The notes: a model not told the origin generated them from the letters alone. DNA of 64,000 nt from Clostridiaceae bacterium (GCA_019391515.1 JAHXQP010000020.1:156367-220366); one strand, 5' to 3'; numbered from the stretch's first letter, positions 57,522 to 62,581 are shown. Numbers and translations are program-made.

Positions 57522-58307
57522 ATGGATAAATATGAAATATTTAAACAAGAAGTAGAGAAATTAATAGGCATTAATTTAAATTTATATAAGGAAAAGCAAA
57601 TGAAAAGAAGAATAACCTCTTTGCTTACTAGAAATGATTTTAAAGATTTTGATGATTATTTAACAGGATTAAAAAAAGACGAAAATTTATTAAATGAATT
57701 TGTAAATTATCTAACTATAAATGTTTCAGAATTTTATAGAAATCCAAATCAATGGAAAGTTTTAGAGGAAGATATTCTTCCAACTTTTATAAAAAAATGG
57801 GACAACCCTCCTAGAATATGGAGTAGTGCTTGTTCTACAGGAGAAGAACCATATTCAATAGTAATGTTATTGAGCAAGTTTTTTGATTTAAAAGATATAA
57901 ATGTTTTAGCAACAGATATAGACTTAGAAGCCATAAATAAAGCTAAAATCGGTATCTATAATGAAAAATCATTAGAAAATCTACCTAAAGAATTTAAAAT
58001 AAAATATTTTTCTCCTTTGAAAAATGCATATAAAATTAAAGATGAAATAAAACAATGTGTAACATTTAAAAGAATAGATTTATTAAAAGATTCCTTTGCT
58101 AAAAATATAGACTTAATTATGTGTAGAAATGTAATGATATATTTTACTGAAACTGGGAAGGAGTTGTTATATAAAAAGTTTCATAATAGCCTATCAGATA
58201 AAGGCATATTGTTTGTTGGTAGCACTGAACAAATAATATTACCTAATAAGCATAATTTTGAACCTGTTAAAACCTTTTTTTATAAAAAAATTAGGGAGTC
58301 TAATTAA
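57522..58307 (+). CDS. cheR: Chemotaxis methyltransferase CheR
   Basis: TINVSEFYR, WSSACSTGEEPYS, ATDID, CRNVMIYF, G.TE. Confidence 0.95.
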   Translation: MDKYEIFKQEVEKLIGINLNLYKEKQMKRRITSLLTRNDFKDFDDYLTGLKKDENLLNEFVNYLTINVSEFYRNPNQWKVLEEDILPTFIKKWDNPPRIWSSACSTGEEPYSIVMLLSKFFDLKDINVLATDIDLEAINKAKIGIYNEKSLENLPKEFKIKYFSPLKNAYKIKDEIKQCVTFKRIDLLKDSFAKNIDLIMCRNVMIYFTETGKELLYKKFHNSLSDKGILFVGSTEQIILPNKHNFEPVKTFFYKKIRESN

Positions 58308-58316
58308 TTTAAATTG

Positions 58317-58325
58317 TGATATAAT
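58317..58325 (+). promoter_or_regulatory. Extended -10 promoter for M42 cluster
   Basis: TGATATAAT. Confidence 0.5.
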
Positions 58326-58349
58326 ATTATCAAAAAGGGGGTATGCTTA

Positions 58350-59411
58350 ATGAATTCAAAAGAATTTCTTGAAATTTTATCTAATTCTAGTGGGGTTTCT
58401 GGTTATGAATACAGAATTAAAGATAAAATTATTTCCGAGTTCAATAAATATTCTGATGAAATAAAAACTGATAACCTTGGTAATGTGATAGCTGTAAAAA
58501 AAGGCAATTTAAACAAAAATAAAGATAGAATTAAAATAATGCTTGCAGCACATATGGATGAAATTGGTTTAGTAATTACGGCTATTGAAGAAGATGGTTT
58601 TTTAAGATTTGCAACAATTGGAGGAATAGATCCTAGAACCCTTTTAGGACAAGAAGTCTTAGTCCATGGAAAAAAAGACTTATTTGGTATAATAGGTGCA
58701 AAACCTCCACATTTACAAGAAGAATCCGAAAGAAATAATCCAGTTAAATTAGAAGATATGTATATCGATTTAGGTTTGAAAAAAGAAGATATTCTGGATC
58801 TTATAAAAATAGGAGATAGTATCACTATCAAAAGAAATTTAATTAAATTACAAGGTAATAGAGTAGCAGGTAAAGCTTTAGATGATAGAGCTGGAATAGT
58901 TACATTATATGAATGCATTAAAAAATTACATAAACTTAACCATTACTCTGATATATATTTTGTCTCTACTGTTCAAGAAGAAGTAGGTTGTAGAGGAGCT
59001 ACTACAAGTGCATATAGTATTAACCCAGATATAGGGATTGCAATAGATGTAGGTTTTGCTTCTACGCCTGAACTTCCAAAAGAAGACACTTTAAACATGG
59101 GAAAAGGTCCAGGAATTACTTTGGGAGGCAATATTCATCCAGGCCTTAGGAAGAAATTAGTAGAAATAGGTAAGGAATATAATATACCATTTCAATTAGA
59201 AGTAGAACCTGGACCAACAGGAACAGACGCAAGAGCTATCCAAATTACTAGACAAGGAATACCTACTTTATGCATTTCTATTCCTTTAAGGTATATGCAT
59301 ACTTCAGTTGAGGTTATAGATTTAAAAGACATAGAAAATACAGCAAAGTTACTTGCTTTCTTTGTAACTTCAATTTCAAATGAAAATTTGGAGGGGTTAT
59401 TATGCTATTAA
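58350..59411 (+). CDS. M42 (TET) aminopeptidase 1
   Basis: AHMDE, ALDDR, QEEVG, AIDV, RYMH. Confidence 0.92.
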   Translation: MNSKEFLEILSNSSGVSGYEYRIKDKIISEFNKYSDEIKTDNLGNVIAVKKGNLNKNKDRIKIMLAAHMDEIGLVITAIEEDGFLRFATIGGIDPRTLLGQEVLVHGKKDLFGIIGAKPPHLQEESERNNPVKLEDMYIDLGLKKEDILDLIKIGDSITIKRNLIKLQGNRVAGKALDDRAGIVTLYECIKKLHKLNHYSDIYFVSTVQEEVGCRGATTSAYSINPDIGIAIDVGFASTPELPKEDTLNMGKGPGITLGGNIHPGLRKKLVEIGKEYNIPFQLEVEPGPTGTDARAIQITRQGIPTLCISIPLRYMHTSVEVIDLKDIENTAKLLAFFVTSISNENLEGLLCY

Positions 59412-60421
59412 AAAGATTAACCGAAGCTTCTGGCGTTTCAGGGAACGAAAAAGAAGTTAGAGATATAATAATTGAAGAAATAAAGGAATATGTAGATAAT
59501 ATACAAGTAGATAAAATAGGTAATGTTATTGCTTATAAAAGAGGAAAGAAAGACTCACCGAGATTAATGATAACTGCCCATATGGACGAAGTAGGTTTTA
59601 TTATAACCGATATAAATGATTCTGGTCTTTTAAAGTTTACAACTGTTGGGGGAATTGATCATAGAATTCTTGTATCTAAATCTGTAAAAGTAGGTAAGAA
59701 ACAAATACCAGGCGTTATAGGAGCTAAACCAATACATTTGCAAAAAAAAGGGGAGCGTCTAAAAACATTAAGTTTAGACCAACTTTATATTGATATAGGC
59801 GTTAACAGTAAAGAAGAAGCAGAAGATTTAGTTTCTATAGGAGATTATATAACATTTTATAGTGAATATGTAGGGTTTGGAAATGACTTGATAAAAGCAA
59901 AAGCTCTGGATAATAGGGTAGGATGTAATCTTCTTATAGATTTGCTCAAATCTAATACAGATTTAAGTTTTTATGCTGTATTTACTGTAATGGAGGAAAT
60001 TGGTTTAGTAGGAGCTGGTCCAGCTGCTTATACTGTAGAGCCTGACATTAGTATAATTTTAGAAGGAACTCTTTGTTCAGATGGTCCAGATACTGAGGAA
60101 CATTTAATTCCTACTAAGTTAAAACAAGGACCTGCTATATCTTTATTGGATAGAACCACACTATTTAATATTGATTTCAGAAAATATATAGTTAATATTG
60201 CAGAAAAAAATGGCATACCTTATCAATTTAGAAAAACTAGCTTTGGAGGAAATGATTCGGGAAAAATACACCAGGCTAAAAGTGGTTCTACTACAGCAAC
60301 TATATCAGTACCATGTAGATACATACACTCACCTATATCAGTTATGGCTAAAGAAGACTATAAAAATACCTGCAAGCTGTTAAAATCTATATTAAGTGAA
60401 ATTGAAAAGGGGGATTTTTAA
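59402..60421 (+). CDS. M42 (TET) aminopeptidase 2
   Basis: AHMDE, ALDNR, MEEIG, ILEG, RYIH. Confidence 0.92.
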   Translation: MLLKRLTEASGVSGNEKEVRDIIIEEIKEYVDNIQVDKIGNVIAYKRGKKDSPRLMITAHMDEVGFIITDINDSGLLKFTTVGGIDHRILVSKSVKVGKKQIPGVIGAKPIHLQKKGERLKTLSLDQLYIDIGVNSKEEAEDLVSIGDYITFYSEYVGFGNDLIKAKALDNRVGCNLLIDLLKSNTDLSFYAVFTVMEEIGLVGAGPAAYTVEPDISIILEGTLCSDGPDTEEHLIPTKLKQGPAISLLDRTTLFNIDFRKYIVNIAEKNGIPYQFRKTSFGGNDSGKIHQAKSGSTTATISVPCRYIHSPISVMAKEDYKNTCKLLKSILSEIEKGDF

Positions 60422-61414
60422 ATGAACTTTAATAGTGAATTAGTTGAAAAGCTAGTAAATATATATTCACCATCAGGTGATGAAAACAAGATTAGAGAAT
60501 TTATAAAAGATGAAATTAAAGATTTTGTAGATGAAGTTGAAATAGATTCATTGGGAAATTTAATAGCTAGAAAAAAAGGAAAAGGTAAAAAAATAATGCT
60601 TGCAGCTCATATGGATCAAATAGGCCTTATGGTAACAGATATTGATGATAAAGGATTTTTAAGATTTACAAATATAGGAGGAATTTCCCCTATACTATCT
60701 CTTGGACAAAAGGTTATTTTTAAAAACGGAACTATTGGAGTAATATTTGCAGAGCCTGTAGATAATATGGGCAAATTAAAACTTGAAAATATGTTCATAG
60801 ATATTGGAGTATTAAACAAAGAAGAAGCAGAGGAAAAAGTAAGCATAGGAGATATTTGCGTTTATGAAATAGGCTTTTCTGAAAATGATAATGTGATTTT
60901 TTCGAAATGCTTAGATGATAGAATAGGATGTTTTGTTCTTATAGAAACTCTAAAGAGAGTAAAAAATAGTGATAATGATTTATATTTTGTATTCACTGTT
61001 CAAGAAGAGGTTGGTCTTAGAGGAGCTAGAACTTCTTCTTATAAGATAAATCCAGATTTAGGTATTGCAATCGATGTTACTTCAAGTGGTGATACTCCAA
61101 AAGCCAAAAGATTTGCTGTTTCATTAGATAAAGGCACAGCTATTAAAGTGAAAGATAATTCTATACTTACTCATCCTAAGGTAAGAGAACTTATGGTTCA
61201 AGTTGCAGAAGAAAATAATATACCTTACCAAATGGAAGTTTTAGAGTTTGGAGGTACAGATTCCGGAGCTATTCATTTAACTAGAGAAGGAGTTCCTACT
61301 GGTGCAATTTCTATACCTACTAGATACGTCCATTCAACTGTAGAAATGTCTTCTAAAAAAGATATTAATTATTCTGTAGATTTATTAGTAAAATTGTTGG
61401 AAAAAACTATTTAA
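60422..61414 (+). CDS. M42 (TET) aminopeptidase 3
   Basis: AHMDQ, LDDR, QEEVG, AIDV, RYVH. Confidence 0.92.
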   Translation: MNFNSELVEKLVNIYSPSGDENKIREFIKDEIKDFVDEVEIDSLGNLIARKKGKGKKIMLAAHMDQIGLMVTDIDDKGFLRFTNIGGISPILSLGQKVIFKNGTIGVIFAEPVDNMGKLKLENMFIDIGVLNKEEAEEKVSIGDICVYEIGFSENDNVIFSKCLDDRIGCFVLIETLKRVKNSDNDLYFVFTVQEEVGLRGARTSSYKINPDLGIAIDVTSSGDTPKAKRFAVSLDKGTAIKVKDNSILTHPKVRELMVQVAEENNIPYQMEVLEFGGTDSGAIHLTREGVPTGAISIPTRYVHSTVEMSSKKDINYSVDLLVKLLEKTI

Positions 61415-61448
61415 AAATAGGGACTGATGATTCAGTCCCTATTTTTTT
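61413..61448 (+). terminator. Terminator after M42 cluster
   Basis: AAAAATAGGGACTGA-TGAT-TCAGTCCCTATTTTT. Confidence 0.8.
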
Positions 61449-61535
61449 ATCCTATTTGACAAAATAGCTAAGTTAGACGCATTTACATAATTTATTATGT
61501 CAATAAATGAATTAAAAAACATCTCTTATATAAAA

Positions 61536-61560
61536 AGGAAATAAGAACTTTTTAAAGAAT
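61536..61560 (+). promoter_or_regulatory. sigmaH-type promoter
   Basis: AGGAAAT-N11-AAAGAAT, same AGGA-to-GAAT distance as the spo0A promoter. Confidence 0.65.
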
Positions 61561-61600
61561 AGTATTATATAAAGGTAATAATATTAAGGGGGCGGAATAT

Positions 61601-62221
61601 ATGCCAGATATAGATTTAGAAAAAGAACATACTATTTCTGAAGTATCTAAAATAACTGATTATCCTCCGCATGTTTTAAGATATTATGAAAAAGAGTTTG
61701 AACTTGATATTCCAAGAAACGATTCTAATCACAGATATTATACTTACAAAGAAATAGAATTACTTCAATATATAAAGTCATTACAAGAAAAAGGTTTTAG
61801 CAATAAACAAATTAAATTAATAATAAAATCTCCTGAAATTCTTGCTAATAATCAAGAAGAGGCAGTAACTACAACAACATACGGATTACAAAAAATGGAT
61901 GTTACTAATTTATCCCAAGAAATTAGTAATGAGTTAAGTCAAGTAATTACTTCAAAACTTACTGAAGAAATAAAAGTTATTTTAAATTTTAATCAAGAAA
62001 ATGGAGATAAATTAATTATGGAACTAAAAGATGAGATTGAACAATTGAGAAAAGAATTAACTAGTAAGGAAAGAGACGTTCTAATTTGTGAAAATGCTAA
62101 ACTAAAATTGAAGGTAAAAGAAAAATCTTATGAAGCAGCAGGATTAAAAGAAAAAGTTAAGAGAATGGAATCTTCTAATAAAGGTTTTTTCAAAAAAATA
62201 TTTGGATCTAAAAAAATATAA
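61601..62221 (+). CDS. MerR-type HTH + coiled-coil protein with C-terminal amphipathic helix (RacA-like architecture)
   Basis: TISEVSK.T....HVLRYYE..F....PR....HRYY; coiled coil; ends KGFFKKIFGSKKI. Confidence 0.8.
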   Translation: MPDIDLEKEHTISEVSKITDYPPHVLRYYEKEFELDIPRNDSNHRYYTYKEIELLQYIKSLQEKGFSNKQIKLIIKSPEILANNQEEAVTTTTYGLQKMDVTNLSQEISNELSQVITSKLTEEIKVILNFNQENGDKLIMELKDEIEQLRKELTSKERDVLICENAKLKLKVKEKSYEAAGLKEKVKRMESSNKGFFKKIFGSKKI

Positions 62222-62386: not shown

Positions 62387-62536
62387 ATGGGTAAAAATCC
62401 AAATAAAAATTCTAAATTAAAATCTAATATAGTGTTAAAAAAATGTGGAGCGGTAAGTTGTATAAACAATATTCAAGGATTATGTGATTTCGCTAAATGT
62501 GAGCTATATGAACGATCATTGGCTCAGGAATATTAA
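62387..62536 (+). CDS. 49-aa Cys4 microprotein (not in ORF track)
   Basis: RBS AAAGGGGAAG; MGKNPNKNSKLKSNIVLKKCGAVSCINNIQGLCDFAKCELYERSLAQEY*; own promoter and terminator. Confidence 0.7.
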   Translation: MGKNPNKNSKLKSNIVLKKCGAVSCINNIQGLCDFAKCELYERSLAQEY

Positions 62537-62581
62537 GTATATAAAAATGAGTAGGTATATACCTACTCATTTTTATATACT
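62536..62581. terminator. 46-bp perfect palindrome; bidirectional terminator between convergent genes
   Basis: AGTATATAAAAATGAGTAGGTAT|ATACCTACTCATTTTTATATACT. Confidence 0.8.

What the first reader, a model, noticed from the sequence alone, without database searches (positions are those of the whole stretch)
61536..62221. sigmaH-type promoter driving a MerR-HTH/coiled-coil protein with a MinD-like membrane-targeting helix: candidate chromosome-membrane tether
Seen: monocistronic gene behind AGGAAAT-N11-AAAGAAT (same geometry as the spo0A sigmaH promoter). The protein has an N-terminal MerR-type HTH, no effector domain or Cys, a long coiled coil, and ends KGFFKKIFG (62180-62206). Knowledge: E. 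coli MinD ends KKGFLKRLFGG, its membrane-targeting sequence; B. subtilis RacA (HTH plus coiled coil, sigmaH/Spo0A-controlled) anchors origins to the poles via DivIVA, and many clostridia lack a recognised RacA. Inference: a RacA analogue that binds membrane directly, providing axial-filament anchoring or nucleoid occlusion in this lineage.
Basis: partly seen in the sequence, partly recalled or inferred. Interest (0 to 1): 0.7.

Follow-up and report, generated by a model that had tools for sequence, protein, structure and literature searches.

The report
Sporulation-linked DNA-to-membrane tether candidate
This small gene of a spore-forming anaerobe (Anaerosalibacter) most likely makes a protein that holds DNA with one end and the cell membrane with the other. 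It is built like the known chromosome anchors RacA, RocS and RicO, is probably switched on as sporulation starts, and so is a candidate for the missing chromosome anchor of clostridial spore formers.

Summary
The gene is window 61601..62221 (+) and encodes 206 aa. The protein has a MerR-type winged helix (residues 11-76), a disordered linker (80-98), one 92-residue helix (101-192) and the tail K194-GFFKKIFG (62180-62206). The tail is as amphipathic and basic as the MinD membrane-targeting sequence. Two side claims fail. There is one Cys (C163), and "monocistronic" is unproven because no terminator precedes the next small gene.

The AGGAAAT-N11-AAAGAAT motif is not rare on its own, with 4 matches in the window against about 2 expected. 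But it is kept at the same place in 61 of 78 orthologous promoters, against 0.5% of control windows. In this genome the same motif precedes spo0A, spoIIAA, spoVG, spoVS and minC, and sigH is present.

Orthologs are single-copy. They occur in 80 of 123 SpoIVA-positive Tissierellales genomes and in 0 of 78 SpoIVA-negative ones.

The layout equals RacA plus the membrane tail of RocS/RicO, a published kind of chromosome-membrane tether. It is not a RocS (DUF536) or RacA member by curated models. I read it as a new variant of a known kind. Function is inferred, not shown.

The parts
61413..61449 (+). Stem-loop plus T-run that ends the upstream M42 peptidase gene and separates it from this gene
   Evidence: Terminator scan; inverted repeat I1
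61490..61519 (+). Conserved A/T-rich block upstream of the -35 (consensus ATTTGT..AAAA). It contains TGTCAAT (61498-61504), a 5/7 match to the Spo0A box TGTCGAA. Its role is unexplained.
   Evidence: Alignment of 79 orthologous upstream regions
61536..61560 (+). SigmaH-type promoter: -35 AGGAAAT (61536-61542), 11-nt spacer, AAAGAAT containing the -10 GAAT (61554-61560). The predicted start of transcription is near 61567.
   Evidence: Exact match. Conserved in 39/78 (strict) and 61/78 (relaxed) orthologous promoters, and in Geosporobacter in another genomic context. The same motif precedes spo0A, spoIIAA, spoVG, spoVS and minC in this genome.
61587..61593 (+). Ribosome-binding site AAGGGGG, 7 nt before the ATG
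   Evidence: Sequence; AGGGGG is conserved in the orthologs
61601..62221 (+). Coding sequence, 206 aa: MerR-type winged helix, linker, coiled coil, amphipathic tail
61631..61828 (+). Winged helix-turn-helix, residues 11-76 (GlnR/TnrA/RacA-like branch of the MerR superfamily). R27, R39 and R45 are invariant.
   Evidence: Pfam MerR_1 E 3.7e-22. Foldseek: GlnR 7tea 39% identity, rmsd 2.3; RacA 5i44 rmsd 1.2-1.5. hhalign to RacA 1-49: probability 63%, E 6.8e-5. Invariant columns.
61838..61894 (+). Flexible linker, residues 80-98, variable in length and sequence
   Evidence: pLDDT below 50; gappy, unconserved alignment columns
61901..62176 (+). Long helix, residues 101-192, predicted coiled coil (oligomerisation)
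   Evidence: AlphaFold2 helix 101-192, pLDDT 81-93; heptad scan
62063..62134 (+). Near-invariant block SKERDVLICENAKLKLKVKEKSYE (residues 155-178) inside the coiled coil. It is a candidate partner-docking surface and contains C163.
   Evidence: Invariant columns. Present in 24 of 101 representative clusters of at least 160 aa. No Pfam match.
62180..62206 (+). Tail KGFFKKIFG (residues 194-202) after a helix break at N193: a MinD/RocS-type membrane-targeting amphipathic helix
Evidence: Conserved in all 80 loci. Helix 194-201 in the model.
62387..62536 (+). 49-aa Cys4 microprotein gene. It may be reached by read-through and is a conserved neighbour in part of the family. It is not shown to belong to the system.
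   Evidence: Directly downstream in 19/77 loci and in Geosporobacter; no terminator in between
62537..62580 (.). Perfect 46-bp palindrome, a two-way terminator shared with the convergent aminotransferase gene

Best explanation
The gene encodes a chromosome-to-membrane tether of the RacA/RocS/RicO kind.

Proposed mechanism:
- A coiled-coil dimer or higher oligomer (helix 101-192) presents two or more GlnR/RacA-like winged helices on flexible linkers to DNA.
- The same oligomer presents two or more short amphipathic tails (K194-GFFKKIF) to the inner face of the membrane, so DNA is pinned to the membrane.
- The gene is transcribed from a sigmaH-dependent promoter, so the protein accumulates at the transition to stationary phase and the onset of sporulation.
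- There it would do what RacA-DivIVA does in Bacillus: hold the chromosome at the membrane or pole while the asymmetric septum forms. It would do so with a built-in anchor, as in RocS and RicO.
- The near-invariant block ERDVLICENAKLKxKVKEKSYE in the coiled coil is probably a docking site for a partner.

Shown by computation: the domain layout, the conservation of the tail and the promoter motif, and the phyletic link to sporulation genes.

Inferred: DNA binding, membrane binding, oligomeric state, timing of expression and the cellular role.
For: Architecture:
- MerR_1 winged helix, disordered linker, 92-residue helix, a break, then a short helix.
- This is the layout reported for RacA: DNA-binding domain 1-70, protease-sensitive linker, coiled coil about 100-160 (PMC4914108).
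- RocS and RicO have the same layout plus a C-terminal amphipathic helix (10.1101/2024.07.25.605149; 10.64898/2026.03.06.710092).

DNA-binding domain:
- It superposes on RacA 5i44 at rmsd 1.2-1.5 A (TM 0.82-0.84) and on GlnR.
- hhalign to RacA 1-49 gives E 6.8e-5.
- 15 of 29 family members give sub-threshold hits to the RacA model NF009647, best E 6e-6.

Tail:
- Hydrophobic moment 0.43-0.46 and net charge +3/+4, like the MinD tail.
- This genome's own MinD ends GKFTRIMKILFGK.
- The motif is kept in all 80 orthologous loci.
- K-G directly before the helix recalls the Lys-Lys-Gly155 kink described for RocS (PMC13042908).

Promoter:
- Conserved in 61/78 orthologous promoters against 0.5% of controls.
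- Retained in Geosporobacter inside the 3' end of ispH.
- The same motif lies upstream of spo0A, spoIIAA, spoVG, spoVS and minC.
- sigH is present.

Distribution and genome content:
- Single-copy orthologs in 80/123 SpoIVA-positive and 0/78 SpoIVA-negative Tissierellales genomes. This includes two within-family co-absences, f8:g10 and f17:g19.
- The genome has no other RacA-like gene and no DUF536 protein.
Against:
- By sequence the winged helix is closer to true transcription regulators (GlnR 39%; HspR, CueR, ZntR at E 1e-9 to 1e-11) than to RacA (16-19%).
- No centromere-like site array was found, either beside the gene or as an over-represented palindrome in the genome.
- A whole sporulating family (f20, most of the 43 SpoIVA-positive genomes without an ortholog) and most other Clostridia lack the core family. 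It cannot be a universal part of clostridial sporulation.
- SigmaH regulons also hold vegetative division genes, so a sigmaH promoter does not prove a sporulation-specific role.
- The tail region has low model confidence (pLDDT 48-60).
Confidence: 0.5

Rival explanations
1. It is an ordinary sequence-specific transcription regulator of the sigmaH regulon (GlnR/FtsR-like). It controls a few stationary-phase, division or sporulation genes. The basic amphipathic tail would then serve regulation: reversible sequestration at the membrane or sensing of membrane state, not tethering of DNA.
For: - The strongest sequence matches of the DNA-binding domain are to transcription factors: GlnR 39% identity; HspR, ZntR, CueR and CarH in 25-29 of 29 members; FtsR in 13 of 29.
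- All database names are 'MerR family transcriptional regulator'.
- No site array or over-represented palindrome was found.
Against: - It lacks what makes canonical MerR activators work. No dimerisation helix packs directly on the winged helix; a disordered 20-residue linker stands there instead. There is no effector domain.
- A 92-residue coiled coil plus a universally conserved membrane tail is unexplained by simple regulation.
- RacA itself is GlnR/TnrA-like in fold (PMC4914108), so similarity to GlnR does not separate the two readings.
Confidence: 0.25
2. It is a DNA-membrane bridge, but it acts in vegetative division rather than in sporulation. It would be a nucleoid-protection or origin-positioning factor like RocS, RicO or Noc, and sigmaH would merely boost it.
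For: - Same architecture as RocS and RicO, which act in growing cells.
- In this genome the sigmaH motif also precedes minC, a zapA-like gene and an ORF that looks like ftsZ (not checked against a family model).
Against: - The family is absent from every SpoIVA-negative genome of the order (0/78), although these still divide.
- The genome has MinCDE and DivIVA for division-site control.
Confidence: 0.15
3. The tail is not a membrane anchor. It would be a basic peptide that binds a protein partner or nucleic acid, and the protein would be a soluble DNA-bridging or scaffold coiled coil.
For: - Membrane binding is untested.
- Distant relatives have polybasic tails with only a short hydrophobic pair, such as GLFKRK.
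- Model confidence in the tail is low.
Against: - In the core family the tail keeps the spacing of hydrophobic and basic residues of MinD-type targeting sequences.
- Such tails were shown to bind membrane in RocS and RicO (PMC13042908; 10.64898/2026.03.06.710092).
Confidence: 0.1

Closest known systems
RacA (Bacillus subtilis chromosome-anchoring protein; PDB 5i41/5i44; PMC4914108)
   Same: - GlnR/TnrA-like MerR-superfamily winged helix, rmsd 1.2-1.5 A.
- Disordered linker, then a coiled coil, with similar size (184 against 206 aa).
- Expression from a sigmaH-type promoter. For racA this is my own knowledge of the B. subtilis sigmaH regulon.
- Found in spore formers.
   Different: - Sequence identity is only 16-19%.
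- It scores 18 bits against the RacA model, whose cut-off is 165.
- RacA has no membrane tail and reaches the pole through DivIVA, whereas this protein carries its own MinD-like tail.
- No GC-rich ram-like sites were found.
RocS (Streptococcus pneumoniae; Pfam PF04394 RocS-like_C/DUF536; 10.1101/2024.07.25.605149, PMC13042908)
   Same: - MerR-type winged helix, coiled coil and a C-terminal MinD-like amphipathic helix preceded by Lys and Gly.
- Membrane binding is expected to need oligomerisation.
   Different: - No DUF536 domain with its three conserved glutamines. A different invariant block, ERDVLICENAKLK.KVKEKSYE, stands in the coiled coil.
- Its winged helix is recognised strongly by Pfam MerR_1.
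- It occurs in sporulating rods with ParAB-type and Min systems, not in cocci.
- Its promoter is sigmaH-type.
RicO (Staphylococcus aureus; bioRxiv 10.64898/2026.03.06.710092)
   Same: - Winged helix, coiled coil and C-terminal amphipathic helix.
- Anchors origin regions to the membrane.
[quoted passage not shown]
   Different: - RicO appears longer: its deleted tail begins near codon 305.
- It acts in vegetative cocci and binds ricS sites.
- I could not obtain its sequence, so direct homology was not tested.
GlnR/TnrA and canonical MerR regulators (PDB 7tea, 4r4e, 1q05 and others)
   Same: Best sequence matches of the DNA-binding domain: GlnR 39% identity over 75 columns; profile E 4.5e-13.
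   Different: - No dimerisation helix attached to the domain.
- No effector or glutamine-synthetase-binding tail.
- A 92-residue coiled coil and a membrane tail instead.
MinD membrane-targeting sequence
   Same: - Short C-terminal amphipathic helix with a similar hydrophobic moment and charge.
- This genome's own MinD tail, GKFTRIMKILFGK, is of the same type.
   Different: It is attached to a DNA-binding coiled-coil protein, not to a ParA-type ATPase.

Membership tests
RocS family (Pfam PF04394, RocS-like_C / DUF536) | DUF536 domain with three conserved glutamines in the C-terminal half of the coiled coil | tested here: not met
   No PF04394 hit at E <= 1 for the protein, at E <= 0.1 for its C-terminal half or four relatives. 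The only genome hit lies elsewhere, E 0.23.
RocS family (Pfam PF04394, RocS-like_C / DUF536) | [quoted passage not shown] | tested here: met
   MerR_1 E 3.7e-22; fold matches
RocS family (Pfam PF04394, RocS-like_C / DUF536) | C-terminal MinD-like amphipathic helix preceded by Lys/Gly (kink-helix) | tested here: met
   K194-G195-FFKKIF, helix break at N193. Hydrophobic moment 0.43-0.46. Conserved in 80/80 loci. Membrane binding itself is untested.
RacA (NCBIfam NF009647 and sister models) | Score above the curated cut-off of the RacA model | tested here: not met
   17.9-18.4 bits against a cut-off of 165. 15/29 relatives give sub-threshold hits, best E 6.2e-6.
RacA (NCBIfam NF009647 and sister models) | GlnR/TnrA-like winged helix joined by a disordered linker to a coiled coil | tested here: met
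   AlphaFold2 model; RacA 5i44 rmsd 1.2-1.5 A, TM 0.82-0.84; layout as described in PMC4914108
RacA (NCBIfam NF009647 and sister models) | Coiled coil binds DivIVA, which gives polar anchoring | not testable with these tools
RacA (NCBIfam NF009647 and sister models) | Centromere-like GC-rich palindromic sites (ram) clustered near the origin | tested here: inconclusive
   No strongly over-represented palindrome was found (half-site 5-7, gap 0-8). The true motif is unknown and the assembly has 32 contigs.
RicO (S. aureus) | Sequence homology to RicO | not tested
   No model or sequence of RicO was available in the tools. Only the shared architecture is known from 10.64898/2026.03.06.710092.
Canonical MerR transcription activators | Antiparallel dimerisation helix directly following the winged helix, plus a C-terminal effector-binding region | tested here: not met
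   Residues 80-98 are disordered and unconserved. No effector domain was found.
SigmaH-dependent promoters | RnAGGAwWW, 11-12 nt, RnnGAAT at the right distance from the gene, conserved in orthologs and shared with known regulon members | tested here: met
   sigH gene present.

The most novel reading that the evidence does not exclude
This family is the clostridial counterpart of RacA. It is induced by sigmaH (perhaps with Spo0A) at the onset of sporulation. It binds origin-proximal or bulk DNA and inserts its own MinD-like tail into the membrane. Through the invariant ERDVLICENAKLK.KVKEKSYE block it recruits a partner such as DivIVA, MinD, Soj-Spo0J or SpoIIIE. It would thus merge RacA's developmental job with the anchoring mechanism of RocS and RicO, and its loss would give forespores without DNA.
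Probability: 0.3. Interest if true: 0.7.

Novelty: new variant of a known kind. Interest (0 to 1): 0.5.

Why it matters
How spore-forming Clostridia hold a chromosome at the pole during asymmetric division is not known, and RacA is recognised only in Bacilli.

This family gives a concrete, testable candidate. It is a single small gene with three separable modules: DNA head, coiled coil and membrane tail. Its promoter is conserved and sigmaH-type, and its distribution tracks the ability to sporulate.

It would also link the vegetative tethers of cocci (RocS, RicO) with the developmental tether of Bacillus (RacA) in one evolutionary series. And it would correct hundreds of database entries now named 'MerR family transcriptional regulator'.

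Tried and rejected
- Binding sites: I looked for a centromere-like site set. No repeat array lies beside the gene. A genome-wide scan for over-represented palindromes gave only terminator-like stems (a first, slow version timed out).
- Direct profile comparison with RocS, RicO and pSK1 Par: their sequences could not be fetched. pSK1 accession GU565967 is not in the plasmid collection. Only the RacA DNA-binding domain could be compared.
- Plasmid origin: the one full-length 'plasmid' hit, Geosporobacter NZ_CP017270.1, carries mutS, mutL, hfq and ispH. It is evidently a piece of chromosome, so there is no evidence for a plasmid-partition role.
- C163 as a redox or metal site: rejected, because distant orthologs have S/A/T/E there.
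- Operon link with the three upstream M42 peptidases and cheR (syntenic in 56/80 and 45/80 loci): rejected as functional, because a terminator separates them and Geosporobacter has other neighbours.
- Spo0A box upstream: only a 5/7 match here (61498-61504). A conserved A/T-rich block exists but cannot be assigned.

Full report
**1. What is there**

The window comes from a 2.84-Mb genome with 30% G+C. Its closest named relative at this locus is Anaerosalibacter bizertensis, with 97% protein identity.

- The ORF 61601..62221 (+) encodes 206 aa.
- It follows a stem-loop terminator of the upstream M42 peptidase gene (61413-61449).
- It has a strong ribosome-binding site, AAGGGGG.
- The tail KGFFKKIFG is residues 194-202 = 62180-62206.

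Two side claims do not hold.
- The protein has one cysteine, C163. It is invariant among close orthologs but replaced by S/A/T/E in distant ones, so it is not a sensor site.
- No terminator lies between the stop codon and the next small ORF at 62387. The next terminator is the palindrome at 62537-62580. 'Monocistronic' is therefore unproven.

**2. The protein**

Sequence and fold:
- Pfam finds a MerR_1 helix-turn-helix at residues 11-76 (E 3.7e-22) and nothing else of significance. NCBIfam gives only helix-turn-helix matches far below every family cut-off.
- The AlphaFold2 model (mean pLDDT 78) shows a winged helix at 10-76 and a disordered stretch at 80-98 (pLDDT below 50). One continuous helix runs from 101 to 192 (pLDDT 81-93), breaks at N193, and is followed by a short helix at 194-201.
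- Foldseek against the PDB matches only the head. GlnR (7tea) gives 39% identity and rmsd 2.3 A. CarH and canonical MerR proteins also match. RacA (5i44) gives rmsd 1.2-1.5 A and TM 0.82-0.84 at 16-17% identity.
- A family profile aligns to RacA residues 6-47 with E 6.8e-5 and 63% probability. The RacA sequence was verified against PDB 5i41.

The RacA structure paper states that the RacA head is GlnR/TnrA-like. It also states that, unlike canonical MerR proteins, RacA has a disordered linker between the head and a coiled coil at about residues 100-160 (PMC4914108). The present protein has exactly that layout.

The tail:
- It has a hydrophobic moment of 0.43-0.46 and a net charge of +3/+4.
PMC13042908 gives 0.424 for MinD.
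- This genome's own MinD ends GKFTRIMKILFGK.

**3. The family**

- A word-based search found 562 relatives. The best are all full-length, about 200 aa, from Tissierellales, and named at most 'MerR family transcriptional regulator'.
- An exhaustive profile search found 22 clusters (at 50% identity) with E <= 1e-30 and about 35 clusters with E <= 1e-24. Beyond these lies a large outer group of MerR-head proteins, many with polybasic tails such as GLFKRK.
- Alignments show a conserved head with invariant R27, R39 and R45, and a variable linker.
- The coiled coil holds a strikingly invariant block, SKERDVLICENAKLK.KVKEKSYE.
- The tail G-[FLI]-[FL]-x-[KR]-[IL]-F is conserved. It is present in all 80 orthologous loci fetched from named genomes.
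- Members also occur outside the order, in Geosporobacter and Wukongibacter.

**4. The promoter**

The motif by itself is not rare in this A+T-rich DNA: 4 matches in the window against 2.07 expected. Three observations make it credible.

- It is conserved in the orthologs. The strict motif is found in 39 of 78 distinct orthologous upstream regions, at a median of -61 from the ATG, against 0.21% of 12,036 control windows. A relaxed form is found in 61 of 78 against 0.53%.
- It survives a change of context. In Geosporobacter ferrireducens the upstream neighbour is ispH instead of the peptidases. AGGAATT-N12-ACAGAAT is kept there, partly inside the end of ispH.
- It marks the expected regulon. 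A scan of this genome finds the same motif in front of spo0A, spoIIAA, spoVG, spoVS, minC and disA, and of zapA- and ftsL-like genes. Identities were checked. The scan also lists ORFs that look like ftsZ and dnaG, which I did not check against a family model.

From my own knowledge of the B. subtilis sigmaH regulon, spo0A, spoIIA, spoVG, spoVS, ftsAZ, minCD, the sigA operon and racA are all sigmaH-dependent. The genome encodes SigH, scoring 381 bits against a cut-off of 295. No RNA data could be consulted.

A second conserved block (ATTTGT..AAAA) lies 20-25 nt upstream of the -35. In the window it contains a 5/7 match to the Spo0A box. I leave it unexplained.

**5. Distribution**

- In 201 genomes of the order, 80 carry one full-length ortholog.
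- All 80 also carry SpoIVA. Orthologs occur in 80 of 123 SpoIVA-positive genomes and in 0 of 78 SpoIVA-negative ones.
- These counts are not phylogenetically independent. But two families contain a genus that has lost both while sister genera keep both (f8:g10 and f17:g19).
- One large sporulating family (f20) has only generic MerR hits. The protein is therefore not universal among spore formers.
- This genome has no other RacA-like gene and no DUF536 protein. It does have DivIVA and MinCDE.

**6. What it most likely does**

The modules match the published DNA-membrane tethers.
- RocS needs its MerR-type head, a coiled coil for oligomerisation and a C-terminal MinD-like helix. A single helix is not enough for membrane binding (10.1101/2024.07.25.605149). 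The helix begins at a conserved Gly next to two Lys (PMC13042908).
- RicO of S. aureus has the same three parts and anchors origins to the membrane. Its authors propose a RicO/RacA/RocS family spread through Firmicutes, including Clostridia (10.64898/2026.03.06.710092).

I therefore read this protein as an oligomeric bridge between DNA and membrane, made under sigmaH control at the onset of sporulation. In function it is RacA with a built-in anchor. My confidence is about 0.5.

The rivals are:
- a true transcription regulator whose tail serves regulation (0.25);
- a vegetative nucleoid-protection or origin-positioning factor (0.15);
- a tail that is not a membrane anchor (0.1).

**7. Membership and novelty**

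- It is not a RocS-family member in the Pfam sense, because it has no DUF536.
- It is not a RacA by curated models: 18 bits against a cut-off of 165.
- Homology to RicO could not be tested.
- It fails the defining layout of canonical MerR activators.

It works like RocS and RicO and is regulated like RacA. Three library searches found no description of such a clostridial protein. I rate it a new variant of a known kind, with interest 0.5. The kind is published, so a specialist would not be astonished. But it offers a concrete candidate for an open question in clostridial sporulation.

**8. Things that led nowhere**

There is no site array beside the gene and no over-represented palindrome in the genome. 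There is no plasmid link. pSK1 Par could not be fetched.

Noticed in passing
window 62387-62536 (+); L121:13234-13374: A 49-aa Cys4 microprotein (KKCGAvSCINNiqGlC....CELYE..L.QE[DY]) has its own sigmaA-like promoter. It lies 140-200 nt downstream of the gene in 19/77 Tissierellales loci and again in Geosporobacter (another order), each time before a convergent PLP aminotransferase. It has no Pfam or NCBIfam match. It could be a partner of the tether or just a conserved neighbour.
   Followed up: partly
window 61490-61519: A conserved A/T-rich block (ATTTGT..AAAA, or TATC[AG]AATATTTG in some lineages) lies 20-25 nt upstream of the -35 in most orthologous promoters. The window copy holds TGTCAAT, a 5/7 match to the Spo0A box. 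It could be an UP element, a 0A box or an autoregulatory site.
   Followed up: partly
L121 (NZ_CP017270.1, Geosporobacter ferrireducens 'plasmid unnamed1', 24.6 kb): This record, labelled a plasmid, carries cmk, ispH, miaB, mutS, mutL, miaA and hfq. It looks like a chromosomal fragment mislabelled as a plasmid.
   Followed up: no
own genome, e.g. C2:308390(-), C14:5481(+), C18:182815(+) = window 26449, C21:184513(+), C29:37772(+), C23:25426(+): A simple sigmaH-motif scan recovers a coherent candidate regulon: spoVG, spoIIAA, spo0A, spoVS, minC and disA, zapA- and ftsL-like genes, and ORFs resembling mreB, HU, ftsZ and dnaG, plus a group-3-like sigma factor at C30:46237. It could serve as a first map of the sigmaH regulon in Tissierellales.
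   Followed up: partly
proteins P0156-P0270: A much larger outer group of Clostridia proteins (200-350 aa) shares the head motif HVLRYWE[ED]EL. Many end in polybasic tails with a hydrophobic pair (GLFKRK, RRLFGK, GFFRKK). This may be a second, uncharacterised family of membrane-associated MerR-head proteins.
   Followed up: no
window 57522-61414: cheR followed by three tandem M42-family peptidase paralogs is syntenic upstream of the gene: the peptidases in 56/80 loci and cheR in 45/80. A terminator separates them from the gene.
   Followed up: partly
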